In this document: positions 2,139 through 62,200 of the stretch, piece by piece | Numbering within the stretch: position 1 is the stretch's first letter | Layout: every line of letters starts with the position of its first letter | Assembly: GCF_009834535.1 (NCBI RefSeq) | Contig: NC_045696.1 | Span: forward strand, 4,466,001 to 4,530,000 | Direction of reading: 5' to 3' | From: Camelus ferus | Taxonomy: Eukaryota | DNA length: 64,000 nt | The notes under the pieces: model-generated | What the model saw: the letters and a program-made list of their open reading frames with translations, nothing else | Databases searched by the model: none | Told to the model about the DNA's origin: nothing | Translations under genes and position numbers: made by a program

Positions 2139-2267
2139 TTGTTTTATTTTATTTTTTGGTGGGTGAAAGTAATTAGGTTTATTTACTTTTGGAGGGGGTA
2201 CTGGGGATTGAACCCAGGACCTTGTGCATGCTAAGCATGCTCTCTACCACTGAGCTGTACCCACCCC
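2139..2267 (-). mobile_element. tRNA-derived SINE (Vic-1-like)
   Basis: Reverse complement reads GGGGTGGGTACAGCTCAGTGGTAGAG...GGTTCAATCCCCAGTACC (Pol III A and B boxes) followed by an A-rich tail. Confidence 0.85.
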
Positions 2268-7147: not shown

Positions 7148-7375
7148 ATATACATATCATAAACATTATATAAAATATGTAAGTATTATAAATAATACTA
7201 TATTTATATATTGTAAATAATTATATTATATATTATATTTATATATTATAAATAAAAATATATAATTTACCCAAATATTTATATATAATTATATTATATA
7301 ATATGTTAATATATTACAAATAATTATATTATATAGAATATGTTTATATATTACAAATACAAAGTATATAACTTA
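7148..7375. repeat. Degenerate AT-rich low-complexity tract
   Basis: About 230 bp of almost pure A/T with recurring TATATTAT and AAATAAT units. Confidence 0.85.
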
Positions 7376-22310: not shown

Positions 22311-22466
22311 GGGGAGGGTATAGCTCAGTGGTAGAGCGCGTGCTTAGCCTGTTTGAGATGCTGGGTTCAGTCCCCAGTGCCTCTGTTAAAAGTAAATATG
22401 TAGATAAATAAGTAAATAAACCAAATTACCTCTCCCACACCCCAATAAAATAAAATAAATTAGTTT
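22311..22466 (+). mobile_element. tRNA-derived SINE (Vic-1-like) with target-site duplication (TSD)
   Basis: Head GGGGAGGGTATAGCTCAGTGGTAGAG and A-rich tail. TSD TAAAGGTATGCGGACC (22294-22309) / TAAATGTATGTGGACC (22467-22482). Confidence 0.9.
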
Positions 22467-25049: not shown

Positions 25050-27400
25050 TTTAAACACCTTTTTTTTTTCAATGCCATTTTACCATAGCATTTCTAAATT
25101 AAAAAAAAAAAAGATATTACTTTACCCTTCCCACCCCCAACTTGCACTCCCCAGAAGCTATTTTCAATTTCTAAGGGCTTTTTTTTTCTTTTCCAGTATT
25201 GACTTCCATATTTAGAACTTAATAAAACTGATTATATTGTGATTTCTTCATTTCATTCAGTTGAAGACGTCATTTACTGACTTCCTACCGTGGGTGATGG
25301 AGTTTTTGTTCTCTTACACCTTAAGAAGACCCTTCTCCTCCCTACCCTCTCAATATATTAGTGTATCGACTTTTGACTAGTTCTGTTTCCATATTTATAT
25401 GATCACTGTGTAGACAGTAATCACACTTGGCCAATGGAGTCCTGCAATTACCTTTCCTCTCCTATACAAATTTTGTTATTCCTGAAGGTACTTCACTTCT
25501 TCCACTTGTTTTGTTTTCTACATCACTATCATTGTGGTCCTACCCATGCAAACAGAACTCTCCATCTCTCACTCATTCAGAAACATCAGGTTATCTGTTA
25601 GCGTCTAAACAGTTTTGTTCTCAGAAGCCTCCCTCTTGTTGCTGTCTGTGCTCTGCCCCAAAGCGGACTGGCTGCACTTGAGAATGACTGACAGCTGTCA
25701 TCCTGGGCTCTCCCTTCTCCATTCTTCTGGGGTGCCTCTGTCTTTCTCTCGTGGGGATCCCTGCTTCTTGGCAGGGAGCATGGGGAATGTCTTTCTCTTC
25801 CATGCTTCACTCTCTAGTTTTGGTGAAGTAAGTCTTTCAGTAGCTTTGGGAGAAGCGATTCATGGAAGGTAATGTTTTAGAGAGGTTTGTCTTTCTTCCA
25901 CCGCCCACTGTGAGGTTGATGGAGAGGCCAAGGTAGACCAGTAGACCAGCGTTTCTTCTTCCTCAGATATTTTAGACATCCTTCTTCTGTGTCCCAGTGT
26001 TGCTATTGAGAAATACAACGCCCTCTGGGCCATGATCATTCAATGAGAAAGATTTTAGGAAACTTTTAGGGTATTTACCTCATCCCTAGGGGTCACAAAA
26101 TTCAGAACTGACGTGCTTCGGAATCCTTCATACATTCATTCGTTTATTTTTGTTCTGGGTACTTATTGTGCCTCTTCATTCCAAAAGCTCATGTCCTTCA
26201 GTTCTGGGAAGATTTCCTGAATAATTTTCTTGATAGTATGTTTTTCTCTTTATTCTCTTTTTTCAGAAGCTCCTATAATTCAGATATTGGATCCCCTTGA
26301 TTCGTATTCTAGTTTTTTTTTCCCTCCTACATTTCATCCTTTTTTCTTTTTCATTCTACTTGCTGGGAGACTTTCTGACAACTTTATCTTCCAATTATCC
26401 CACTGATTTTTTAAATTTCTGCTATGATATTTTCACTTTTCAAGAGCTCATTTTTATGTAAGTCATCCTTTCCATATCATGATATACCTGATTCATAGTT
26501 GAAAATGTTTTGGTTATTTCCCAGGGGTCATTAATTATAAGGCTTTTTTTTTCCAGTTTCCTTCTGCTTAGTTTGGGCCTTTCTTAAAATGTCTGTCCAT
26601 CCTTGGATGTACCTTTATATTTCAAGAGGAGAACCAAAGTTGTCCATAGGAAACTCTACGTATCACGTGTGGGGGGTGGGAGGGAGGAGCTTGTTAGTTG
26701 GTGGGCTTCCCTTTAGGCTCTTCCACAGAGGAGTCCCCAAATGTTGGGTCTTTTCTTCCTGTAAAGACCACTTCCCCAAAGAGCAATCTGCAGTCTCACA
26801 GAGGAGGCAGAGGATGCAGGCAGGGGTGGTGTAAGTTTGGCTGCCGCATTCTGGAACCTGAACAAGGTGGGGAGAGAGGCTCTTAGGGATGTGGATTTCA
26901 ACTGAAGTCCCCCCCCTTTTTTTTTCCTGACAATCTACCCCCATCCACAGGGTTTCCAGGGTTCCTGATACTGAGTCCAGATGCTCTCAGGGGGGTTGTC
27001 CTAGTCTCCTGACAAGATCTTCCAGGAGACACCTGTCAGGGGAGTGTACCTGGGAGGCCACCTCTCCTTGAAGACTCCCCTTCAGAGCACCTGGTGCCTC
27101 CGGGTCCGTCAGTCATTCCAGGTTCCTAAAGCCCCAGCACCTTACCTGTTGTTGAGCCTTCCCCACAGACAAAGGTTCCAGCTTCTCCTTTGTGAAGTCA
27201 GCACACAAACTCCCCTTCCATGGCTTTTCAAGTTATGTTGGCACCTTTCGCGCACCATCATCTCCATTTCCACTCTCTGTCCTTTGGGACTCAGTTCTTG
27301 CACTGTCTTTGGAGTCCGGTTCCTGGGGGCAGAGTGAGTCCAGCTCTCCATGGTTTACTGGAAACTCCCTAGCATCTACCATATATTGTCTATTTTTAGG
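25050..27400 (-). mobile_element. Highly degenerate old L1 (L1ME-like) fragments
   Basis: T-rich strand bias and ORF1-region-like antisense motifs (GTTGCTATTGAGAA, CTTCAGTTCTGGGAA, CTCCTATAATTCAGATATTGGA). Boundaries are approximate. Confidence 0.5.
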
Positions 27401-27477
27401 CCTTTAGAGAATGATCCACAAAAAATTTAGAAAGTGTTTCCTACAAAAGTTAGGGAATGTGAGGACAATTCAGGCAG

Positions 27478-28620
27478 CCGTAGTTTAAGAGCCGCCTCGG
27501 AACACCTGCCAGCAGCTGGAAAGACAGCGCCGCTCCTCCACCACATTTATTAGTGGACTCTCAGTCTCCAAGCCTGTTTCCTCCTCGGAAAATGAGCCTC
27601 AGCTGGTAATACCCGCATCACACAACTATCGCGGGGGCGAGGAGCAGCCATGCATGCGAAAGCGCTCTGAAAAGCAGCAAGTGTCGCCGTCAGTGCGGCC
27701 TATTTTGATCACCTATCTTAAAGCTGGCAGGTTTATGAGTGCAATGTAACATTTCTTTACCCTTTTCAAAAATAGATGTAGTCAGCCATGACGTAAGGCT
27801 AGATTCGATATAGGATCTGGAATATAGGTAGGCCGACCAGCCCACGTCTTCATTTTCTGGACTGAATGCCCTCCAGCCCCGCCCTTCCTGCCTCTCTCCT
27901 GCCTCGGACTCCGGATGCTCCGAGGCTCGGCTGCTGCTTTAAGACTGCAGAGCGCCCCGGCGGCCAGAGGCGGGGGAGGGGAGCCCCCGCTCGCCTCCTC
28001 TCCGCTCGCTCCTCGCCCGCCCGCCCGCCTCCCAGGCAGGGAAGGTTAGCGAGGGATCAATGTGATTCGGGCCGCAGGAGAGGAAAGATGAGCCTGCCCG
28101 CCCGCCTGCTGCCTGGATGTGGAGGCTGAGGGCTGGCGCACGGGAGGCCGCTTGCTGCGCATTCGGGGCGCCGGGTGCCCGGGATGAGCTCACGCCCGCG
28201 TCTGCGGCTCTGTCCACCTGCCGACCTGCCGGCGGCCGCCTGAGCTGACGGCGCACCTGGGCTGCAGCCCCGCCGGCCCGCTCTGGCCGCAGCGTTGGGC
28301 GCGGCGCCCGGGAGCAGGTGTGCAGGAGCGCAGCGCGCGGCGAGCGCAGCCCTCGCCCCGGAGCCCGGCCGCGCCGCGTGCCCGGGCGGCTCGGCAGCGG
28401 CGGCGGCGGGCGGGCAGCGGCCCTTGGGCAGGTGGCGAGCGAGCGGAGCCGGGCGGAGCGCGGGGGGCGAGGCCGGCGCGGCAGAGCCTCGCCGGAAGGA
28501 GCCGCCAGCGCCCTGCTGCTGTTGCTCCTTTGTAAACTCTGCTCATGGAAAAGTGTCATACAATGGACATCGAGCTGCTAAACAGGATTTCGGTGATTAA
28601 CCCTCTACCGTGTTGCCAGT
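27478..28620. promoter_or_regulatory. Orphan CpG island containing copy 1
   Basis: CpG enrichment extends about 450 bp left and 130 bp right of the duplicated block. CRE-like TGACGTAA at 27789-27796 and GC box CCCCGCCC at 27877-27884. Confidence 0.75.
27930..28482 (+). repeat. Direct duplicate (copy 1) of DSCAM core promoter/5'UTR
   Basis: Aligns to 58661-59212. 27985-28482 is identical to 58715-59212 (498 bp). The first 55 bp differ by 3 substitutions and 1 indel. Confidence 0.97.
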
Positions 28621-29754
28621 TGATAAATTGCAAACAACTGAGCCATCTTTCCAGCTAGATTGACTAGCAAAGCCACAGCTTAATCTAACTTCCCCTAAAT
28701 GGGCCTTTGATGTTCTCGACACTCTTGCCTCCTACACACATACACACACACACCCCAACCCCCCGGCAACCCACCGTCCACTCCTTCAGAACATTTCAGA
28801 GGAGTCTCGGTTTCCTGCCAGGTTCTTCCTTCTGGCGGGTCATAGTGACAGATTCCAGGCTATGCTAAATCGAGGTGCTCATTTGTATTCTGTTGGAAAA
28901 GCTTAGGGTAGAGCTTGTAAGGGGCCATAGGGTGAGGTCTGCACTTCACGTTGAGCTTAAATTAGGGCCGACAGTCACCCATCGTCACTGTTTTAACCTA
29001 CTTTCTGGTTTTGCCTTTGCAGTTGGTGTGAGAGCTTCAGGGAAGAGGTTTTCCCCCACAGAAAGGAAGTGAAACGGACTATTTCTGGTCATTCTCGCCT
29101 ACGATTGCTCTCATGGAACACAGGAGGCTGGGCGCTCAAGCTCTTTTGTATCTTAATGTTGGGGAAAGGCATCCAGGTGGATCCGTTATTTCAGGTTCTG
29201 GCAGGACGCTACCATTTCGCTCTGCCCCGCTGGCTTGGGTCCCCTCTGTGGACAGTCTTCTCCATCCTCTTTCCCTGCTAATATCTGGGAACAACCCTGA
29301 TGTTCCTGAGTGGCTCACACTGTTCCTGGCTTATGCCTGGGGCAGAGAAGAGAGGCAGGGGTTCATCCTCATCCCAAAATGGGTTCCTCTCTGCCTAAGC
29401 GCTGTCTGGATTAACTTACCTGTACTCCTCCAGTGGACCTGCCCTGTTTTAGAGATGGATAATGATGATAGCTTTGTAATCTGTAGTGTTTTGGTCACTT
29501 TTTGTTGTTTTCCTACTTGAAAACCAGTCATGTTAGCCCTCCAGCCCTGCCTGAGCACCTGCCCTGGGCTGGTACCCTGAAGCTCATTTGATCCACACGT
29601 GGATCTTCAGAGGCAGATAATATTCCCCTGAAGGTACTGGTCCACTGCTGATATGGGTAGGCAACATGCTCAGGTCACCCAACTGCAGATCTGAATATTA
29701 AGAGAGAAGCTTACAGATTAAGCTTCAACAATCATCCCTGATCCTCCTCTGCTG

Positions 29755-30592
29755 CATGTGGGGATATAAAATTGGGCAACCACCTTGGAAAGCAGTCTTG
29801 GAGTTCCCAAAAAAATTTAAAATAGAGTTACTATATAGCCCAGCAGTTCCATTCCTAGGTATATACCCAAGAGGAATGAGAAGAATCTCCATACACAAGC
29901 ATGTACATGAATATTTGTAGCCGAATTTTACATAATGTAGAATAATGCTAAAAGTAGAAACAACTCTGATGTCCATCAACTGATGACTAGCAAAACTAAA
30001 TGTGGAGTATCGATACAGCAGAATATTATTCACGGGGAAGGGTATAGCTCAAGTGGTAGAGCACATGCCTAGCATGTATGAAGTCCTGGGTTCAATCCCC
30101 AGTACCTCCTCTAAGAGTAAATCAATTAACCTAATTACCTGCCCCCCCAAAAAACTGAATAAATAAATGTCACTGTTCAGAATATTATTCACGCATTGAA
30201 AGGACTGAAGTATAACACATGCTACCACCTGGGTGGAAATACTTGAAAATACTGTGCTAGGTGAAAGAAGCCAGTCACAAATGGTCACATGTTGTATGTT
30301 TCCATTTATAAGAAGTGTCTAGAATAGGCAAATCCGAAGAGAAAGCTGGTAGAATGATGCTCGCCTAAGGCTGGAGGTGGGGGATTGGGGGGGGCAATGG
30401 TGTTGGAGGGAAATGGAAAGAGAGCTAGATGGGTGTGACGTTTCTTCCTGGGATGACAAATATCTTCTGAAATTAGATTTGGTGATGGTTGCTCAACTCT
30501 GTGAATATTACCAAACCATTGAAATGTAAAGTTTAAATGGGTCAAATGTAGGATATGTGACTTATCTCTCAATAATGCTGTTATTTAAAAAA
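29755..30592 (+). mobile_element. L1MB-type 3' end (interrupted by SINE)
   Basis: CAGCAGTTCCATTCCTAGGTATATACCCAAGAG..GGTGATGGTTGC..CTCAATAATGCTGTT. Confidence 0.85.
30034..30177 (+). mobile_element. tRNA-derived SINE (Vic-1-like) inserted in an old L1
   Basis: A/B-box head. Perfect flanking direct repeat CAGAATATTATTCAC(G) at 30019 and 30178. Confidence 0.92.
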
Positions 30593-31472
30593 TATCAGCT
30601 CTGTAAGTCATAATCACATAAATGTCAGTGATTTAGATCTGGGGGAGAAGCCCTTGTCCTTACAAGGAAGGAGCAGAAAGAATTTGCCCTTTTGGAATCT
30701 CAGAGCTATTATTATTTTTGTGTATTTAATGTTGCATGGGAATATGGATTTGAAAAATTATAACCATTCTTTCCTGAGTAAAATAGTCGTCTGTATTTAC
30801 ACAAATAGATGGGCAATCATCAATCCACATTATTTGTTCTTTAGTTTGGTTCAGCAAAGAAACAAATAATAATTGCTTTCTGGAGCACCATGGAATAAAA
30901 AACTTCTTATTGTTTAGAAAAATTTTGACCCTCAGAATTTAAATATTATGTAAAACATATTTTCTTCCTTCTATGTCTCAATTCATAGTAATAAAAATAG
31001 AGAATAGCAATAATCTGATATTCCTATAAAGTTATAAATTCTTAGTGACCTTTTAATATCCTAGCTTTTATATACATGTTTAACAATATGTTTGTGAGAC
31101 TAGCATGAGCAGTATTATTCCCATTTTACATGGGTACTTAATATCAAGGATTAGGGAGGTTAGGTGATTTATACCTGATAATACAATTCACTGAGGCAAG
31201 ACTAAAATCCAGGGCCCCACACCTCCTCTTGTATGTATGTACATGTGTATACAGATATTCTTTCTGGGGTGACAAACATCTTCTAAATGTAGAGTTGGTG
31301 ATAGTTGCTCAACTCTGTGAATATTACCAAACCACTAAAATGTAAAGTTTAAATGGATCAAATGTAGCATATGTGAACTCTCTCTCAATAATGCTGTTAT
31401 TTAAAAAGTATCAGTTCTGCAGGTCACAGTCATTTAAATGTAATTGACATTTAAGTGCATATATTTGTATAT

Positions 31473-33411: not shown

Positions 33412-33597
33412 TTTTTAATTACCATTTTAACTGTTTCTTCTTTAAAATATTTGTTTATTTTTGAATTTTTTTGTAATTTTGGGGGGAGATAATTAGATTT
33501 TATTCATTTATTTTATTTAAGTGGAGGTAGTGGGGATTGAACCCAGGACCTCCTGCATGCTAAGCATGCACTGTATCACTGAGCTATACCCTGCCCC
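33412..33597 (-). mobile_element. tRNA-derived SINE (Vic-1-like)
   Basis: Same head on the minus strand. Degenerate TSD ATGCCCTAATATGTT / ATGCCATAAAATGTT. Confidence 0.88.
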
Positions 33598-49399: not shown

Positions 49400-50600
49400 A
49401 TTATCGTCTTTCAATTTAATTTAAGATACTCTTATCAAGAAAATAAACAGGATCAAACAGCCCAAAAAGGATAGTAAACAAGTAAAAAGTAGATATTCCA
49501 GTACATAGATAACTACTATTTTCAGTTTGACATTTATATTTTACATAAATGAGATCATGTTATGCATTCTGTATTTTTTCCTAAATCAGCCTTTCTTATT
49601 TTCTTTAAGTTATTTTCTCCCTTCTTTCTCCCACTCTCCCCACCTCAGCCCAATCAGTAACAAACACTTGCAGTGGTGTCATCATCTTCCACTCTTACAA
49701 GACTGCACACATCCACATACTCGCTTACGCACACACACACAAGCGCACAAAGATACAGGGTTTCTGTTATTGTTTGTTTTACAAAAAATGAGATGTTTTA
49801 TGTAGTCCTCCACATCTTGCTCTTTTCAATTAAATGTGGTAGAAGTGTCCTCACATCACTTTTTTTTACTGTAATGTCGCAATATTTTTATGTTCCAAAA
49901 TTTATTCAATATCCCTCATTGATGGGCACTCAGATGATTTTCTTTCTGTATCTTTTTTCTTTCTTTTTTCCCTCTTTCTGTTGTCCCAGCAAACGATGCT
50001 GCAATGGATAGCACTGTACAAATAGCTTTTAAGTACTAGTTATTTTTTACCTCAATAGGATAGATTCCCAAGAGTAGGATTGCTAAGTTGAAAGGGAAGC
50101 ATACTTTTGCATTTTGTTTTTTTAAAAATACATATTGCCAGAATCTGTTAAAAATAAAGGAAGCTGCAAAAGCATCCCATTGCCACCAGCAATGTCTGAA
50201 AGTGCCCTTTCTCCCCGCATCTTGCCAACATTAGAATTTCCACTTCTTTTTTTTTTTAAACAGAGGTACTGGGGATTGAACCCACGACCTCATGCATGCC
50301 AAGTGCACACCCGACCACTGAGCTATACCCTCCCTTCCCTAGAACTTCCACTTCTTTTAATTCCTTGTGATTTGGTGGTAAGAAGCAACATCTTGTTGTT
50401 ATCAAAACTTACATTTTGTTGCCTATGAATGTGGTTGAGTGACTTCTCAGGTTACCTAGCTACCTTCTCTTCCATGAACTGTCAAATTCAAGATCTGAGC
50501 CTATTTTTTCTATTGGCTTGATTGTCTTTTTGTTATCAATTCTGTGTTCAGTCTTTTATTGACATTTGGCTTTTGTCTGTCCCGCGTGTGTCCCCTTGCC
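49400..50600 (-). mobile_element. Degenerate L1ME-like fragments (host of the 50251 SINE)
   Basis: GGATAGATTCCCAAGAGTAGGATTGCT..CCACCAGCAATGT..CATCTTGCCAACA antisense L1 motifs. Confidence 0.6.
50251..50339 (-). mobile_element. Short tRNA-derived SINE (Vic-1-like head plus poly-A)
   Basis: Head on the minus strand. TSD TAGAATTTCCACTTCTTTT (50232) / TAGAACTTCCACTTCTTTT (50340). Confidence 0.88.
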
Positions 50601-55959: not shown

Positions 55960-57257
55960 CAGAGGGCTGGCTTCGTGATGTTACAGACCCTTTTGAGTTG
56001 GGCCCCAACAAGGGCCCTTCGACCCAGTGCCGCTCACACCAACAGAATGAGACTGAGTTGGGTCCAGGAGCAAAGGAAGGTTTTACAACTCCAACAAAGA
56101 ACGGAGTGGTGTGGGCTCTGGCTTTAGAGCACAGGCTCTTGCGAAAGGCGGGGCTGCTTTGCAGGCGAGAGGGGCGGAGTCACTGCAGTCTGCGCATGCG
56201 TGTTTCACGCAAAGTGCAGCCTCTCTGCGCACAGCCGGCCGCCGCCATCTTGGGCTGCGGTGCGGGGTTCCGCGCTTCTCCTCACACGAAGTCGGCCGCG
56301 GTTGTGACGTGTCAGGGATAAGGCGTCTGTATTCGGGACGCTGTCGGCAACTGGATCTCAACTAAGCACAAAAGGTTAGACCTTATCTTATTTCCCAGAC
56401 TCCATCTTATTCCCCGCCCCGGGGACCCCAGAGGGGTGAGAAATGAACTTGCCCTGGAATCACCCCTTCTGAGAAAAGCCGGCCCTTGTGGTTAAGTGCT
56501 CTGTAGTTGCCATCTTGAAATTTTCACTGAATTTTAAAATTAATGTTATCCCTGCATTTCTGGCTCCCGCGCCCTCCTGCCTCCCGTCACCTCCTCAGGA
56601 GGGGCTCTTGGCCGCCCACTTCCCCAGGCCGTGGTGCCCTGGGCCTTGGCCACCTCCACCTCCCCAGCCTGCGGTCACTCCTGCTCCGGGTCGTGCTGCA
56701 GGAGCAGGCTGGGTTCTGCTGTGCCCTCCGCCCGTGCGGGGGGCCTTGGGACCGCACGGGGAGGTTGAGGCTGGGCACGTGAACCAGCGCGGTGTGCCAG
56801 GGCGCAGCCCGGCGGTGCCCGCCCCGCCCCACCCCGCCCTCCCCAGGGCGTACTCCCCAGGCGCCTTGGCCAGGGCCTCCTCCGAGCCAGGGTCAAGTGC
56901 TGCCCAGCACGGAGCCTGCATTCCCTCTGGGATCTCCTGTCCACTGCGTGCTGGGGCTGCAGCCTGCAGGAAGGGGAGACCGACTTCCCCCTCCCGAATG
57001 GTCCACTGGCGGTCATAGATGGGGCCACTGGTGCTTCCCTGAGTCACATCACTCACCCGGGACTATTCCTGTGCCGGAGGCAGCATGGCGTTAAACAGCA
57101 AATAAAAAACACCCTGACAGGTTGGGAGAGACTGAGAAAGAAAGGGAAAGACTTTATACTTTAGCACCTTAAGTGGCACTTTTATCCTTTTTGTGAAAAG
57201 AGCCCCCCTCCCCTTTTCATTTTGCACTGGACCCTGCAAATTATGTAACCGTCCCTG
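55960..57257 (+). mobile_element. MER91/MER115-like hAT-Tip100 element (interrupted by an LTR)
   Basis: Left end CAGAGGGCTGGCTTCGTG. Resumes at about 56463 (..GGTTAAGTGCTCTGTAGTTGCCATCTTGAAATT). Right end TTTTCATTTTGCACTGGACCCTGCAAATTATGTAACCGTCCCTG. Confidence 0.7.
55979..56462 (-). mobile_element. ERVL-like (MER74/MER54-type) solo LTR, CpG-rich
   Basis: TG...CA termini. The minus-strand 3' end ACTCAGTCTCATTCTGTTGG..CCCTTGTTGGGGCCC..GGGTCTGTAACA resembles U5 ends of these LTRs. No TSD was found. Confidence 0.55.
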
Positions 57258-58599
57258 CTGCTAAACTCAGTAATAACCACAGCATCATCTATCACGGTGA
57301 CCACATGCTAGGAATATGTCATCGGACCTTCACAACCGCATTAGGAACCTTGATAATTCTGCATATGAGGATGAGGCCCGAGTAACGTGCACAAGCCCGC
57401 ATTGGGTAAGTGGATAAGCGGTGCTCAGACCCGGAGTGTGTCTGACCCCAGAGCTGGAGTGTCTAACTCCTAAGGCTGAGTGGAGCCTCACAGATGGCTG
57501 GTATGCAGTTAAGAATTTGTGATTCGAATGGATGGGTGGAGGAGACGGATGCGGGAGCAGAAATCACCCGTTACCTGCCTTCCTGGACTGCATTTAGGAA
57601 AGACCAGAGCATGAGCACCCGGGGCAGGCAAAGCCAGAGGACACTGGGGAGTGTGGTATGGCAGGGCTGGGCTGGCCCCTAGTGGGCGGCAGCACGTGAC
57701 CACCTGCAGCTGCAGAGCGATGGCGAGCAGCTCGCAGCAGCATCACTGGCTCAGCTGGCCCTTCCTCATACATGGGGCCTGGCCATCTTGTGCCCAACTC
57801 TGGTAAAACACCATTTTGTTTCTGCCTCACCATTTGCTTTTCCTGTTATTTTGTGAGCTGCTCTAGGTGTGCTGAATCCCCCTTGTACTTGGAGGGGTGC
57901 ATGGAGCTTAGCACGATACCCAGGGCCTTGGAAGCCCACTAATTTCCCATGAGACTGCCCTCCTCCTCAAATGCTTCTCTCAGTCTTTCCCGCCTTGCCT
58001 CTCAAATTCTATGTGGGATCCTAAATTGAGGTGCATTCCAGCCCTGTTGGTCATTATTCTGAAAAGGGATGGAATATGGAAGCATGCCCTTTTTAAAGGT
58101 TGTATTTAAATATTATTATGACTTTAACGACCATACAGAACATTCAGGAAATGTTGTCACATTGGCATTTCACAGTGATGTGAAAGGGGTTATATGTTTG
58201 GAATTACTCAAATTATCAGCAATTTTAATCAGTTTTTTTTTCACCATTCAGAAAGCAAAATTAGAATTGCCTGTGTTTGTAGTCTAGGATGTATCTGAGA
58301 TAATTAAAAATTAGCCGGTGAAACCATAGAGATCTTCATAGTAGCAGCAGGATTTGGAAGCTGCTTTTCCCTCTAGGCAAATGAACTGGACTTTTATGAC
58401 AGTAAATACGAAATCTAAATCTAGCTGTACATTTTATTTAAACTGCTAAGGTTTCATGGTCACCTCTGCTTATCTGGCAACCTTCCGGAATAGTCACCCC
58501 TGGCCATATCTTATTAGCAGCCGGCAAGAAAATAACTAAAAATAATCGGCTGTTGAAATGATTATTTAAGCCTCGAAGAAATGCATCTTGATGACTGTG

Positions 58600-59242
58600 C
58601 GTTGACTGTGTGGTGGCTGCGCTCTCGCCGGTCCTGCCTCCAGTTCGGTTCCACTTATCCGCTGCTGCTTTAAGACTGCAGAGCGCCCCAGCGGCCAGAG
58701 GCAGGGGAGGGGGTCCCCGCTCGCCTCCTCTCCGCTCGCTCCTCGCCCGCCCGCCCGCCTCCCAGGCAGGGAAGGTTAGCGAGGGATCAATGTGATTCGG
58801 GCCGCAGGAGAGGAAAGATGAGCCTGCCCGCCCGCCTGCTGCCTGGATGTGGAGGCTGAGGGCTGGCGCACGGGAGGCCGCTTGCTGCGCATTCGGGGCG
58901 CCGGGTGCCCGGGATGAGCTCACGCCCGCGTCTGCGGCTCTGTCCACCTGCCGACCTGCCGGCGGCCGCCTGAGCTGACGGCGCACCTGGGCTGCAGCCC
59001 CGCCGGCCCGCTCTGGCCGCAGCGTTGGGCGCGGCGCCCGGGAGCAGGTGTGCAGGAGCGCAGCGCGCGGCGAGCGCAGCCCTCGCCCCGGAGCCCGGCC
59101 GCGCCGCGTGCCCGGGCGGCTCGGCAGCGGCGGCGGCGGGCGGGCAGCGGCCCTTGGGCAGGTGGCGAGCGAGCGGAGCCGGGCGGAGCGCGGGGGGCGA
59201 GGCCGGCGCGGCGCTCGCGGGAGGCCGGGGAGCAGCAGGGGC
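58600..59242 (+). promoter_or_regulatory. DSCAM: DSCAM CpG-island promoter and GC-rich 5'UTR
   Basis: Very CpG-dense stretch leading directly into the DSCAM ATG. It has a TATA-like CTTTAAGA near 58668, GCCC/GGC repeats and four upstream ATGs. The exact TSS cannot be seen. Confidence 0.88.
58661..59212 (+). repeat. DSCAM: Copy 2 (native DSCAM) of the duplicated block
   Basis: Same alignment as copy 1, at offset 30730-30731. Confidence 0.97.
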
Positions 59243-59285
59243 ATGTGGATACTGGCTCTCTCCTTGTTCCAGAGCTTCGCGAATG
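59243..59285 (+). CDS. DSCAM: DSCAM coding exon 1 (signal-peptide exon, 43 nt, phase-1 donor)
   Basis: ATG TGG ATA CTG GCT CTC TCC TTG TTC CAG AGC TTC GCG AAT G translates to MWILALSLFQSFAN, the mammalian DSCAM N-terminus as I recall it. It is followed immediately by the donor GTGAGC and preceded by a GC-rich leader. Confidence 0.95.
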
Positions 59286-62200
59286 GTGAGCCTTTCGATT
59301 TGTGATGAATTTCATTTGTACTGACCGGAGTGTAGGGGGATTGGATGCATGGGTGAAGTCTTTCCCTTTCCCTCCTGTCTCTGTGTTGATATTTTCATGC
59401 TTTTATTTTTTAAAAATATTAATCATCTTTATTTGGGGAGGAGAAGAGGCAGTGAAGAGAGGCAGGGGGAAAATTGCTCTGTAATCATTTAAAGGCGCTT
59501 ACCTAGCAAAGTGACAGCTCTGAGCTAACTCCAGTACTACCTCATTCAGAATAAACCAGGTTTGGTGAGAGGAGGAGAGAAGGGAAAGATCGCCACTTTG
59601 ACACATCACAGCCTGAAAGGGTCATGACATTCCAAGTGCAGGCAGGTGGAGGGGTCAGTTGAGAGCGTTTGCCTTCAGATTCAAAGCTTTTTGAGCTTTT
59701 AAAACATGTGCTTAAATTCTGCTACAATTCATCTCCAGCAGCAAGAACGCCTTTAGGAAAGATCTATCCTTCCACCTCCCCCCTCCCAGACCCCCCACCC
59801 TCTTGGTACTACAGAGTCCTCAGTCATCTATGTAAAAATATGCACCGATAAGCATTACATCATCTGAAATGTTGACAAATTCTTTAAAACACCTGTATGG
59901 TTGTAAAAATGAATGTTGTAAATAGCATTCCTTTCCTCATGCCCGTCTAATATTATATCTTGAAATGCTTTCTTCCTGGATATTTGAAAAGCTATTGCTC
60001 TTGACTGAGTCAGATCCAATTAGTAAGTGTGACTGCACCTTCGGTTGCCTGTCACCGCGTAAATATGAACTTGCGTGTATGAATGGCTTCCTCTCATTTG
60101 GGAATGAGAGGAAATTGTCATCATTTGGCATTGCCTGGGAGTAGCTACAGCTTAAATTCCCATTTCAAATTTCGGAACACAAATCTGCATAAAATGTATG
60201 ACTTGCTGACAGTTAAAATTAAACCATTAAGCAGAATCCACTACCCAGAAGGGAGGGGGGATGGGGAGGAGAGAGAGAGAAAGGAAGGAAATCTCGCCCT
60301 TGTGAGAAAATACCAGAAGCCAAGGGGAGGTTGTAAGATTTTCCTGGAAGAGGCACAGGGCAGCTCTAAGTGTCAGCTGCATAGGGGTGCGTTTTCTTTG
60401 CCTATCAAGGTAGTACTTAAAGAATTGACACACTGATGGGCCAGAGGAAATGTATAAACTTTGTAAAATTAAAAAAAAAGATGACTAAGAAAAGATAGCA
60501 CTGCAAGAAGGAAGTCCTGAAATTAACATTAAAATGATACTTTGCTCTCTAATATAACCTAAAGCAAAGTGTTCAAAACTTTTCATTTTGAGATTTCCTA
60601 GCAGGAAAGAATTGCAACAAGTTCTGACATGACACCCATCTTTCCCAGAGGGCACTATACCTCTTCTGCAGCCTCGTGGGAATTTACCTTGGGGGATAGA
60701 TCTGCTTTAGCTAATGTGCAATGATGCATCAGGAAAGTCAGCCCTTTATACTGCTCTGCTAATGTGAACTCAGAGAAAATGTGAAAATGCTCACATACAT
60801 GCCACAAAGCCTTGACGGCCTGTTTTACCTGTCAGGACGTACATCTCCGGACTCCTCAGAAGGGCCTGGATTATAGGATGAAGCATAATTTCCACCCTAT
60901 TGGCAAGTATGTATTTCAGGGAGACGAAAGAGGTTGTGCTTCAGATTGTCAGTCAATTGGTATCTATTTTACAGTTTCCCAGTTACATATGACAGAAATA
61001 GTATGGAAGAATTTCTGGTACAGTCTCTGAAAGGGAGGTACTAAAATGTGTGACTTTTTTTGCAATCAGTTTTACTAAAATAATCATGATAGAATCATGT
61101 ATAGTGAGAAAATCATACAAAACTTCAAATAATCTAGTCTATGGACAGTATGTGCAATGACTAGGTATGTGCATATATACTGAGTCCTATGAGCACTGTC
61201 TTCTTACACCTTTTTCATGACCCTTAAAATTGATTGATAATCACCATTATTGATACTGTAATGGATACAGGTAGATTTCACAGTATGAGATAGATACTGT
61301 ACATGCCAATTAATATTTTACATTGCTCTATTGCATGCTCTAATACTGTCTACCAGAAGGCTATGGTACTCTCTTATATAAAATGGCCTTCTCTTTATAT
61401 GTTCAAGCATTTAAAAAAAAAAAAAAAGGCCTGACTGTAGAGCTTTGGACTCTTTCATTTTGAGGGGGAACTAGCTTTAAAGAGTTTTTCAAGGAATGAT
61501 GTTCAATGCATAGTTTGGAAAGGATCATAAAATGTATAGTCATGTCAAAATCAAATAAGAGTCCAGTTTGGAATGATGCCTGTTCATAGGATGGTATTTC
61601 AAAAATGTGAAATTAAATGGTTCTTACCTATTTGAGCGAGACTTGGAAAAAAAATGGAGGCATTTTCCCCCCAATAACTGTCATATTTTGGTCTTCCTTA
61701 ATTTTGAAAAATTCCTGAATGTGTGTGATAAAAGATCTATGAATTCTAATACCTAAACTGATTACTGCTAGGCCTCAAACATCAAAATGTCTGGTATGAT
61801 AAAACAATCTATTTGTAAAAGATTGTTCAGTTTGATATTTTGGGGTACTAATCAAATAAGGCCACAGTGTATCTGCATTTTTCCTACTGATGTAATGGGA
61901 TGCACCTTTATTTCTTAATGAAAGTATGATTGCTAGATAGGCTGCAGACAGTATGTTGGGTAAAAAAAGCAGAAGTCAGAGAGCAGTCCCTTCATGGGTT
62001 AAATCCTTGATTGAATTACCTCACCTGATCAGGGACAGTCATCATGTTTTAAAGCAGTCAACTTGTCCTGCGATGTTCTGAAAATGCTCTCAGGAGAGCT
62101 TCAGTTGCAGTGCACTGGAATGGGTCTGCACATATGTGCATACACATACTGCAACATTTCCATGGGATGGGATCACAGTGTGTTGTGTGTTATCACAGTT

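What the first reader, a model, noticed from the sequence alone, without database searches (positions are those of the whole stretch)
27930..28482. Second copy of the DSCAM core promoter and 5'UTR 30.7 kb upstream, cut off just before the DSCAM start codon
Seen: a 553-bp direct repeat of 58661-59212. It runs from just upstream of the TATA-like CTTTAAGA through almost the whole GC-rich leader and stops 30 nt before the DSCAM ATG. There is no poly-A tail, TSD or TE boundary at its ends, so it does not look like a processed retrocopy. No other DSCAM sequence is duplicated in the window. Known: DSCAM is a dosage-sensitive neuronal adhesion gene, and I know of no twin promoter for it. Inference: this may be a 'shadow' promoter module that drives a different transcript with DSCAM-like control, or acts as an enhancer or decoy for DSCAM.
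Basis: partly seen in the sequence, partly recalled or inferred. Interest (0 to 1): 0.85.

Follow-up and report, generated by a model that had tools for sequence, protein, structure and literature searches.

The report
Old twin of the DSCAM leader
A 553-base copy of the start of the DSCAM gene (its GC-rich untranslated leader) really does sit 30.7 kb upstream; another mammal has it too, so it is old, and its near-perfect identity to the original comes from repeated copying between the two, not from recent origin.

Summary
The repeat is real: 27930-28482 matches 58661-59212, with only these two copies in the 2.09-Gb assembly. All differences (3 substitutions, 1 indel) lie in the first 55 nt; the other 498 nt are identical. 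The downstream gene is DSCAM. It is neither an assembly artefact nor recent. Contigs of another, clearly diverged mammal ("species Z", unnamed Logan/ENA records) carry the same leader joined on both sides to homologues of the camel copy-1 flanks, and Z also has the normal DSCAM copy. Over 128 aligned positions the two camel copies are identical and Z's two copies differ at 1-2. Camel and Z copies differ at 7-9, and each species' private changes appear in both of its copies. That is concerted evolution by gene conversion. Outside the converted tract, copy 1 and its flanks diverge far faster than the true DSCAM promoter flank. This fits a conversion-maintained passenger better than a selected twin promoter. 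Even so, copy 1 and its unique flanks form a ~1.3-kb CpG island that has escaped CpG decay, so it is probably unmethylated and may fire as an orphan promoter.

The parts
27930..28482 (+). Copy 1 of the DSCAM leader (553 nt). It runs from just upstream of the TATA-like box to the point that lies 30 nt before the ATG in the original.
   Evidence: alignment; one of only two copies in the genome.
58661..59212 (+). Copy 2: the leader of the true DSCAM exon 1 (552 nt).
   Evidence: It is contiguous with the DSCAM ATG.
27985..28482 (+). Gene-conversion tract, 498 nt identical to 58715-59212.
   Evidence: 0 differences. (camel copy 1 = copy 2 at 128/128 translated positions, while camel versus species Z differ at 7-9).
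27930..27984 (+). 5' 55 nt of copy 1, outside the conversion tract. It holds all 4 differences from copy 2; at two of them (27972 and the indel) the other species share the copy-2 state.
   Evidence: Clustering p about 1e-4.
27701..27914 (+). Unique 5' flank of copy 1, homologous to the sequence that adjoins the leader in species Z contigs (P0128, P0132, P0133, P0134, P0137, P0122).
   Evidence: tblastn of the flank-only part of P0128 against the masked window hits 27914-27804 (62% of 37 aa) and 27772-27701 (50% of 24 aa), E 7.9e-13; best place in the whole genome. E 8e-5 in 1.84 billion representatives.
28484..28633 (+). Unique 3' flank of copy 1, homologous to the sequence on the other side of the leader in species Z contigs (P0131, P0133, P0134, P0135).
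   Evidence: 28633-28484, 46% of 50 aa, E 5.6e-7; this frame matches at C1:4494067-4494633, E 0.012 genome-wide.
27401..28700 (.). CpG island around copy 1, about 1.3 kb and wider than the repeat itself.
   Evidence: every 300-nt window from 27401 to 28700 has CpG o/e >= 0.67 and GC >= 0.5. Unique flank 27600-27925 has o/e 0.78 (top 0.7% of 1206 background windows; median 0.22). Flank 28483-28600 has 0.76 (top 2.3% of 1218).
58517..58655 (+). Proximal upstream flank of the true DSCAM exon 1, strongly conserved in other mammals.
   Evidence: P0127 100% of 17 aa plus 86% of 29 aa (E 1.3e-16); P0130 77% of 43 aa; P0139 71% of 38 aa; P0125 88% of 17 aa; Lynx P0123 83% of 12 aa.
59243..59285 (+). 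Coding part of DSCAM exon 1 (signal-peptide start MWILALSLFQSFAN plus the first base of the next codon). The GT donor is at 59286-59287.
27921..27928 (.). Upstream arm of an 8-nt inverted repeat whose other arm is at 28484-28491, just outside the two ends of copy 1. It also reads as a 7-of-8 direct repeat (27922-27929 versus 28484-28491).
   Evidence: Read directly. By my estimate it is roughly 1e-3 likely by chance, allowing a few offsets. Not testable in species Z at protein level.

Best explanation
Copy 1 is an old insertional duplicate of the DSCAM exon-1 leader, which is a CpG island. It spans from about the TATA-like box to 30 nt before the ATG and lies 30.7 kb upstream in the same orientation. 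It arose before the camel lineage split from at least one other, clearly diverged mammal (species Z). Since then, recurrent interlocus gene conversion with the true DSCAM leader has kept about 500 nt of it identical to the original within each species. The tract stops about 55 nt short of the 5' end, where copy 1 has drifted. SHOWN: the duplication, its two copies, conservation of both junctions in Z, and the within-species identity with shared private substitutions. INFERRED: (a) Conversion, rather than selection on copy 1, keeps it intact, because its unconverted 5' end and flanks evolve much faster than DSCAM's. (b) Copy 1 and its flanks are unmethylated in the germ line, because unique flanking sequence has kept its CpGs; it therefore behaves as an orphan CpG island and may initiate some transcription. 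(c) The origin was a DNA- or cDNA-templated patch at a break, not L1 retroposition.
For: Structure. Not an artefact: 3 DNA runs hold 1.00 and 4 more hold 0.99 of 251 sampled 31-mers of 27000-29400. One of the 1.00 runs is not flagged as a possible source. About 115 of the 2371 possible words are specific to copy 1, so about 12 should have been sampled, and a run lacking them would score about 0.95 (my calculation, assuming random sampling). Conservation: antisense ORFs called on unnamed contigs give 6 proteins with the leader joined to a homologue of the copy-1 5' flank. Four proteins have it joined to a homologue of the copy-1 3' flank, and 2 of these (P0133 from Logan, P0134 from ENA) carry both on one contig. 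Flank-only tblastn against the masked window lands exactly beside copy 1 on each side (E 7.9e-13 and 5.6e-7). These are also the best places in the whole genome. Species Z also has the DSCAM-type copy (P0127 with the copy-2 5' flank, E 1.3e-16; P0136 and P0122 with the ATG side). Concerted evolution: camel c1 vs c2 128/128; Z c1 vs Z c2 126-127/128; camel c1 vs Z c1 121/128; camel c2 vs Z c2 119/128. Three camel-private and 3 Z-private states are each present in both copies. Faster decay outside the tract: 46-62% against 86-100% translated identity. CpG retention in unique flanks. No poly-A, and only 5' leader sequence.
Against: Every cross-species comparison is at the level of translated antisense ORFs from short unnamed contigs (730-1216 nt). 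No nucleotide sequence of Z could be fetched. De Bruijn contigs can take the wrong exit through an identical repeat. P0122, with the copy-1 5' flank and the DSCAM ATG side, shows such a mixed path or a real recombinant. Linkage of the two Z flanks on one copy therefore rests on 2 contigs plus parsimony. P0127 was assigned to Z because it shares Z's leader states, which is partly circular, although the tree-by-species pattern holds whichever close relative it comes from. The identity and distance of Z are unknown; 'outside Camelidae' is inferred only from flank divergence. Only one other species shows copy 1 (searches found nothing more). Methylation, chromatin and transcription were not examined. 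Two RNA runs hold 0.29 and 0.25 of the sampled words, slightly above the ~0.22 expected from the leader alone. This could mean the flanks are transcribed, which would favour a working promoter.
Confidence: 0.7

Rival explanations
1. Selected twin promoter: copy 1 is a working alternative promoter and first exon, either of DSCAM itself or of a conserved upstream non-coding RNA. Selection for an identical leader and regulatory content, helped by conversion, keeps it alike.
For: It has been retained for a long time in two lineages. The whole 1.3-kb region has CpG-island character, including unique flanks. The TATA-like box is retained in copy 1 of both camel and Z although it lies outside the tract (V/A-L-K in the antisense frame). 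A 7-residue block (KGATAAG in the antisense frame, about 28510-28530) is conserved in the 3' flank. A TGACGTAA motif sits at 27789-27796; I recall it as CRE-like, and the Z residues there are compatible with it. RNA runs hold slightly more words than the leader alone would give. Orphan CpG islands often act as promoters (PMC2944787 and PMC5927659; title and start of abstract seen).
Against: Flanks and the unconverted 5' 55 nt evolve at roughly the pace expected of unconstrained DNA, unlike the DSCAM proximal flank. No candidate splice donor within 150 nt downstream is compatible with the Z residues (my reading). None of the alternative DSCAM N-termini in the database (P0003, P0015, P0020, P0074 and others) maps near copy 1. 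The one weak hit, P0015 at 30666-30692 with E 0.15, has no donor. No paper among those found mentions a second DSCAM promoter.
Confidence: 0.2
2. The conservation claim is an artefact of the contigs: the species-Z proteins come from mis-joined or contaminated short contigs, or from a camelid. Copy 1 would then be a recent camel-lineage duplication, with a few errors or mutations near one end.
For: The contigs are short and unnamed. At least one (P0122) shows a mixed path. Only one non-camel taxon shows the flanks. The 498/498 identity is what a very young duplicate would show.
Against: Each junction is local and is seen in several contigs from two collections: 6 for the 5' junction and 4 for the 3' junction. 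The Z flanks differ from the camel's by 38-54% of translated residues with indels, far more than the 1-2 residues in 268 that separate the camel-like records P0121 and P0138 from the window. Z's leader is no closer to the camel's (119-121/128) than the lynx's is (121/128). A young duplicate would not explain 4 changes packed into 55 nt beside 498 unchanged nt that hold about 70 CpGs.
Confidence: 0.05
3. Assembly artefact: the 553 nt were placed twice by the assembler or a gap-filler and exist only once in the animal.
For: GC-rich sequence is error-prone in assemblies.
Against: Seven runs from 4 studies hold 0.99-1.00 of the sampled words of a stretch in which about 5% of words exist only if copy 1 is real (my calculation). 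Copy 1 carries its own variants. An orthologous copy with the same flanks exists in another species.
Confidence: 0.02

Closest known systems
Concerted evolution of nearby duplicates by interlocus gene conversion (textbook case recalled: the human fetal globin pair HBG1/HBG2)
   Same: Paralogues are identical within a species yet differ between species. Private substitutions are shared by both copies. There is a sharp boundary between the homogenised tract and diverged sequence. The copies are in direct orientation, tens of kb or less apart on one chromosome.
   Different: Here the unit is only about 0.5 kb of non-coding leader and CpG island, not a gene. One partner (DSCAM) is under strong constraint while the other shows none outside the tract, so conversion may be effectively one-way. 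That direction was not tested.
Orphan CpG islands acting as unannotated or alternative promoters (PMC2944787; PMC5927659; title and start of abstract seen)
   Same: It is an intergenic CpG island away from any annotated start, with CpG retention implying absence of germ-line methylation.
   Different: Orphan CGIs are defined by measured non-methylation and by transcription or H3K4me3, and none of this was measured here. This one is a copy of a known gene's own CGI.
Class 2 templated-sequence insertions: patches of distant, often transcribed sequence used to repair a double-strand break (PMC5110952; abstract and passages read)
   Same: A few hundred nt were copied from elsewhere, from a transcribed region, with no poly-A and no L1 target preference.
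   Different: Those are recent human polymorphisms with NHEJ signs at the junctions. This one is ancient and its empty site is unknown. Microhomology is at most 2 nt. It is flanked by an 8-nt inverted and near-direct repeat. The source is only 30.7 kb away, which would also suit a replication template switch.
Clusters of duplicated variable first exons with their own promoters (protocadherin and UGT1A clusters; recalled, not checked here)
   Same: A promoter and first-exon sequence is repeated upstream of a neuronal adhesion gene.
   Different: There are only two units. The upstream one lacks the start codon and a recognisable splice donor, so nothing shows that it can serve as a first exon.

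Membership tests
L1-mediated processed retrocopy | Poly-A tail at the 3' end of the insert | tested here: not met
   No A-run after 28482 or T-run before 27930.
L1-mediated processed retrocopy | Copy anchored at the 3' end of the mRNA, usually 5'-truncated and spanning spliced exons | tested here: not met
   It holds only the 5' leader of exon 1 and stops 30 nt before the ATG. No other DSCAM sequence is present.
L1-mediated processed retrocopy | Target-site duplication of about 7-20 bp | tested here: inconclusive
   There is a 7-of-8 direct repeat offset by 1 nt, but the same letters form a perfect 8-nt inverted repeat.
Class 2 templated-sequence insertion (break-repair patch) | Insert templated from a distant or transcribed region, without TSD, poly-A signal or poly-A tract | tested here: met
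   Definition from PMC5110952.
Class 2 templated-sequence insertion (break-repair patch) | NHEJ signs at the junctions (microhomology, non-templated bases, microdeletion) | tested here: inconclusive
   There is 0-2 nt of possible microhomology at the 5' junction and none at the 3' junction. The empty site is unknown, and the event is too old for fine detail.
Interlocus gene conversion / concerted evolution | Paralogues more alike within a species than orthologues between species | tested here: met
   128/128 (camel) and 126-127/128 (Z) within species, against 119-121/128 between species.
Interlocus gene conversion / concerted evolution | Lineage-specific changes present in both copies | tested here: met
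   3 camel-private events (alignment columns 113-114, 168, 193) and 3 Z-private states (columns 180, 192, 231), each in both copy types.
Interlocus gene conversion / concerted evolution | Defined tract with diverged sequence outside it | tested here: met
   0 differences in 498 nt and 4 in the adjoining 55 nt (p about 1e-4). No significant similarity beyond either end.
CpG island (length >= 200 bp, GC >= 0.5, CpG o/e >= 0.6; criteria recalled) | Composition criteria | tested here: met
   Copy 1: GC 0.78, o/e 0.91. All 300-nt windows from 27401 to 28700 pass.
Orphan-CGI promoter / alternative or 'shadow' promoter | Unmethylated in vivo, with transcription initiation (CAGE, H3K4me3) at the site | not testable with these tools
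The only support is indirect: CpG retention in unique flanks and word shares of RNA runs.
Segmental duplication (>= 1 kb at >= 90% identity; definition recalled) | Length of at least 1 kb | tested here: not met
   553 nt; no significant similarity beyond the ends.

The most novel reading that the evidence does not exclude
The twin leader is a conserved, working second start site in the DSCAM regulatory domain. It would be an upstream CpG-island promoter carrying the same leader as DSCAM, shared by several mammalian orders and locked to the gene's own promoter by concerted evolution. Both would then respond to the same factors, with copy 1 acting as an alternative start, a competitor or decoy, or the source of a regulatory RNA for a dosage-sensitive neuronal gene.
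Probability: 0.2. Interest if true: 0.7.

Novelty: new member of a known kind. Interest (0 to 1): 0.45.

Why it matters
DSCAM dosage matters for neuronal wiring, so anything that duplicates its promoter-proximal CpG island inside its own regulatory neighbourhood deserves a look. If the twin is active, it could compete for factors, start transcripts that run into the DSCAM promoter, or act as a second start. Two direct repeats 30.7 kb apart are also a substrate for unequal recombination. That would delete the strongly conserved proximal DSCAM promoter flank and put the gene under the copy-1 flank; contig P0122 has exactly that arrangement, though it may be an assembly mix. More generally, this is a clean small example of how near-identity misleads about age. 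A 0.5-kb non-coding duplicate looks brand new, yet it is shared with a diverged mammal because gene conversion keeps resetting it.

Tried and rejected
Junction-spanning reads, depth, empty alleles and transcripts therefore remain unexamined. 
They are no evidence of expression or tissue. 
(3) Exact-word scans of JGI metagenome contigs for the 3' junction and for a leader word found 0 and 0.
(4) Finding DSCAM by Pfam I-set (top 150 dominated by one giant gene on C5) and by Dscam_C PF12355 (0 hits; that family rang nowhere) led nowhere. PF25059 worked.
(5) A full-text search for the exon-1 peptide found 0 papers.
(6) Similarity between the flanks of copy 1 and copy 2 beyond the repeat ends is not significant. 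Local alignments reached the observed score in 120-264 of 1000 shuffles. Anchored alignments did so in 232-1578 of 3000 at the 3' end and 282-1689 of 3000 at the 5' end. Whether the original duplication was longer stays open.
(7) The alternative DSCAM N-termini do not map near copy 1. The C. bactrianus N-terminus MHNVNSSS (P0003) is not encoded anywhere in the window. The others were searched. The rhino match at 30666-30692 (E 0.15) lacks a donor and adjoins a local repeat family, so I dropped it.
(8) P0124 (possible copy 1 of a third species) and P0126 had no significant flank match to either camel flank and were not counted.
(9) Searches for more species carrying the copy-1 flank returned only P0128 and P0122, and P0122 plus one spurious hit. 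These libraries hold few mammalian non-coding ORFs, so this says little about absence.
(10) Rfam found only three tRNA-like SINE heads.
(11) Earlier findings of this scan: nothing for this genome, for relatives or by words.
(12) Recent-duplication and artefact readings are rejected as set out under rivals.

Full report
**Observation.** Window 27930-28482 (553 nt) aligns with 58661-59212 (552 nt) in direct orientation, 30.73 kb apart.
- The differences are three substitutions (27959, 27972, 27984) and one 1-nt indel (27982). All lie in the first 55 nt.
- From 27985 to 28482, 498 of 498 nt are identical. Four events falling in the first tenth of the repeat has p about 1e-4.
- The copy ends 30 nt before the ATG at 59243. 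No poly-A follows it.
- Relaxed blastn finds no other shared sequence between the two neighbourhoods.
- The window's own assembly (2.087 Gb, 2043 contigs; window = C1:4466001-4530000) contains these two copies and no third. Both flanks of copy 1 are single-copy.

**Gene identity.**
- The 14 codons from 59243 encode MWILALSLFQSFAN, followed by a GT donor at 59286.
- That peptide is the N-terminus of 7 of the 22 DSCAM proteins whose N-terminus could be read (mouse-like rodents, lemurs, a seal and a bat).
- The best genome-wide match to Pfam PF25059 (FN3_DSCAM-DSCAML_C, 104.6 bits) lies 613 kb downstream on the same strand.
- That exon is 100% identical to Camelus bactrianus DSCAM (P0003) and 94-99% identical to other mammals' DSCAM.
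- So the window is the DSCAM 5' end of a camel or a very close relative.

**Real, not an artefact.** I could not lay reads. Two other lines of evidence remain.
- Sequencing runs. Fourteen runs of one organism from six studies hold at least 0.96 of 251 sampled 31-mers of 27000-29400. Three hold 1.00 and four hold 0.99, and one of the 1.00 runs is not flagged as a possible source of the assembly. About 115 of the 2371 possible words exist only if copy 1 is real (junctions and copy-1 variants). About 12 of these should have been sampled, so a run without them would score about 0.95. This is my calculation and assumes random sampling. Runs at 0.96-0.97 cannot be told apart from carriers with a few SNPs.
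- A second species. This evidence is stronger and is set out next.

**The copy exists, with both junctions, in another mammal.** The GC-rich leader is open in its antisense frame, and gene callers have called that ORF on short contigs in public collections.
Opening their clusters gave 9 more.
- Some are camel-like copy-2 records (P0121, P0138). Some are copy-2-type records of other species: leader plus a homologue of the camel copy-2 upstream flank. These are P0123 (annotated in Lynx canadensis), P0125, P0127, P0130 and P0139.
- One group, here called species Z, carries the leader joined to sequence that matches the flanks of camel copy 1. Six proteins carry the 5' flank (P0122, P0128, P0132, P0133, P0134, P0137). 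Four carry the 3' flank (P0131, P0133, P0134, P0135).
- P0133 (Logan, contig 1111 nt) and P0134 (ENA, contig 906 nt) carry both flanks on one contig.
- To remove the leader's influence, I searched only the flank parts against the 64-kb window with both copies masked:

| Query (flank-only part) | Best place in the window | Identity | E-value |
|---|---|---|---|
| Z 5' flank | 27914-27804 and 27772-27701 | 62% of 37 aa; 50% of 24 aa | 7.9e-13 |
| Z 3' flank | 28633-28484, abutting the junction | 46% of 50 aa | 5.6e-7 |
| Copy-2-type flank of P0127 | 58655-58517 | 100% of 17 aa; 86% of 29 aa | 1.3e-16 |

- Against the whole camel genome, P0128 matches best at copy 1 through leader and flank (query residues 1-150). 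It matches copy 2 only over the leader (residues 1-98), with nothing else at E < 0.05. P0131 behaves correspondingly.
- Reading Z's residues across the 3' junction (…L-R-L-C-P-R-R…) against the camel's antisense sequence puts the junction at the same place within about a base. This is my reading at protein level only.

**How far is Z from the camel?**
- The camel-like records differ from the window at 0-2 of 268 residues. Z's flanks differ at 38-54% of translated residues and by several indels.
- Z's leader is no closer to the camel's (119-121 of 128) than the lynx's is (121 of 128).
- I infer that Z lies outside the camels and probably outside Camelidae. Its name is unknown and I did not try to trace the records.

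**Concerted evolution.** Over the 128 aligned positions covered by all full rows:

| Comparison | Identical positions |
|---|---|
| Camel copy 1 vs camel copy 2 | 128/128 |
| Z copy 1 vs Z copy-2-type | 126-127/128 |
| Camel copy 1 vs Z copy 1 | 121/128 |
| Camel copy 2 vs Z copy 2 | 119/128 |

- Three camel-private events and three Z-private states are each present in both copies of the species concerned.
- A duplication older than the camel-Z split, with copies that nevertheless group by species, is the signature of interlocus gene conversion.
- The tract has the same shape in both species. It covers the 3' ~450-500 nt but not the 5'-most 55-90 nt, where copy 1 differs from copy 2 in camel and in Z.
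- At two of the camel's four differences (27972 and the indel), the lynx and the other outgroups share the copy-2 state, so copy 1 carries the derived changes.

**Function: what the evidence allows.**
- For promoter-like status:
  - Copy 1 has GC 0.78 and CpG o/e 0.91.
  - Its unique flanks, which conversion cannot refresh, have kept their CpGs. 27600-27925 has o/e 0.78 (top 0.7% of 1206 background windows, median 0.22). 28483-28600 has 0.76 (top 2.3%).
  - The simplest reading is that about 1.3 kb around copy 1 is unmethylated in the germ line, that is, an orphan CpG island. Such islands often initiate transcription (PMC2944787, PMC5927659; title and start of abstract seen).
  - The TATA-like box survives in copy 1 of both species.
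- Against a selected twin promoter:
  - Wherever conversion does not reach, copy 1 decays. Its flanks are 46-62% identical to Z's in translation, against 86-100% for the DSCAM proximal flank. Its first 55 nt have drifted in both species.
  - I found no candidate splice donor downstream that the Z residues would conserve.
  - None of the alternative DSCAM N-termini in the database maps near it.
  - The papers found say nothing of a second DSCAM promoter. One search returned 11 papers, 10 listed, none on this by title or abstract. One search returned 2 papers, the one listed being about Drosophila.
- My best reading is a conversion-maintained passenger copy of the DSCAM CpG island that is probably unmethylated and possibly transcribed. 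A selected regulatory role is a minority possibility (about 0.2).

**Origin.**
- It is not an L1 retrocopy: it has no poly-A, is not 3'-anchored and holds only 5' leader.
- The structure fits a templated patch at a break. This resembles class 2 templated-sequence insertions (PMC5110952; abstract and passages read). A local replication template switch from 30.7 kb away fits equally well.
- The 8 nt just outside the two ends form a perfect inverted repeat that also reads as a 7-of-8 direct repeat. It could be a small palindrome at the break site or a worn target-site duplication. The event is too old, and Z too poorly resolved, to decide.
- Similarity beyond the repeat ends within the camel is not significant.

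**Limits.**
- All cross-species evidence is protein-level, from short unnamed contigs.
- One contig (P0122) joins the copy-1 5' flank to the DSCAM ATG side. This is either an assembly path through the identical repeat or a real recombinant.
- Only one other taxon is documented.
- No reads, methylation or chromatin data were seen.
- Whether humans or mice carry the twin is unknown to me and was not tested.

Noticed in passing
P0122 (Logan contig, 1012 nt) compared with window 27804-28508 and 58645-59244: One species-Z contig joins the copy-1 upstream flank, through the leader, to the DSCAM ATG side. This is the product expected from unequal recombination between the two direct repeats, which would delete about 30.7 kb and the conserved proximal DSCAM flank. 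It could equally be an assembler taking the wrong exit through an identical repeat.
   Followed up: partly
window 56001-56500: A second CpG-rich block (GC 0.58-0.62, CpG o/e 0.77-0.94) lies about 2.2-2.7 kb upstream of the DSCAM leader, separate from the repeat. It may be part of the DSCAM promoter island or a distinct element.
   Followed up: no
window 27460-27715: By eye this resembles an old MIR-type SINE (recalled consensus, not tested). It is unusually rich in CpG for such an old element, in line with long-term lack of methylation next to copy 1.
   Followed up: no
window 27789-27796: A TGACGTAA motif (recalled as CRE/bZIP-like) lies about 135 nt upstream of copy 1. The species-Z residues at the homologous place (Y-V-I in the antisense frame) are compatible with its conservation but cannot prove it.
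   Followed up: partly
window 2193-2264 (-), 22314-22385 (+), 30038-30110 (+); also 33507-33596 and 50246-50335: tRNA-like heads of a SINE family are scattered through the window. There are three Rfam tRNA matches at 30-47 bits and repeat families D5 and I4-I8. The 30-kb spacer between the two copies is largely repeat-laden.
   Followed up: no
P0003 (Camelus bactrianus DSCAM, 1928 aa): This database isoform starts MHNVNSSS instead of the signal-peptide exon. That N-terminus is not encoded anywhere in the 64-kb window in any frame, even allowing 2 mismatches. Its first exon must lie elsewhere, presumably in intron 1.
   Followed up: partly
P0123 (Lynx canadensis, 230 aa) compared with window 58591-59244 (-): An NCBI model named 'uncharacterized protein DOCK8-AS1-like' is simply the open antisense frame of the DSCAM leader and upstream flank. 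The name looks like an annotation accident, though it hints at an antisense transcript at the DSCAM promoter in lynx.
   Followed up: no
window 58979-59302 (+) and P0045 (dog, partial): The frame of the DSCAM start codon is open for 88 codons upstream of the ATG. A partial dog DSCAM model translates that leader as protein (96% identical over 52 aa). This is a GC-rich open frame, not evidence of an N-terminal extension.
   Followed up: no
window 7185-7349: An AT-rich stretch of ~34-nt tandem-like units (family D7).
   Followed up: no
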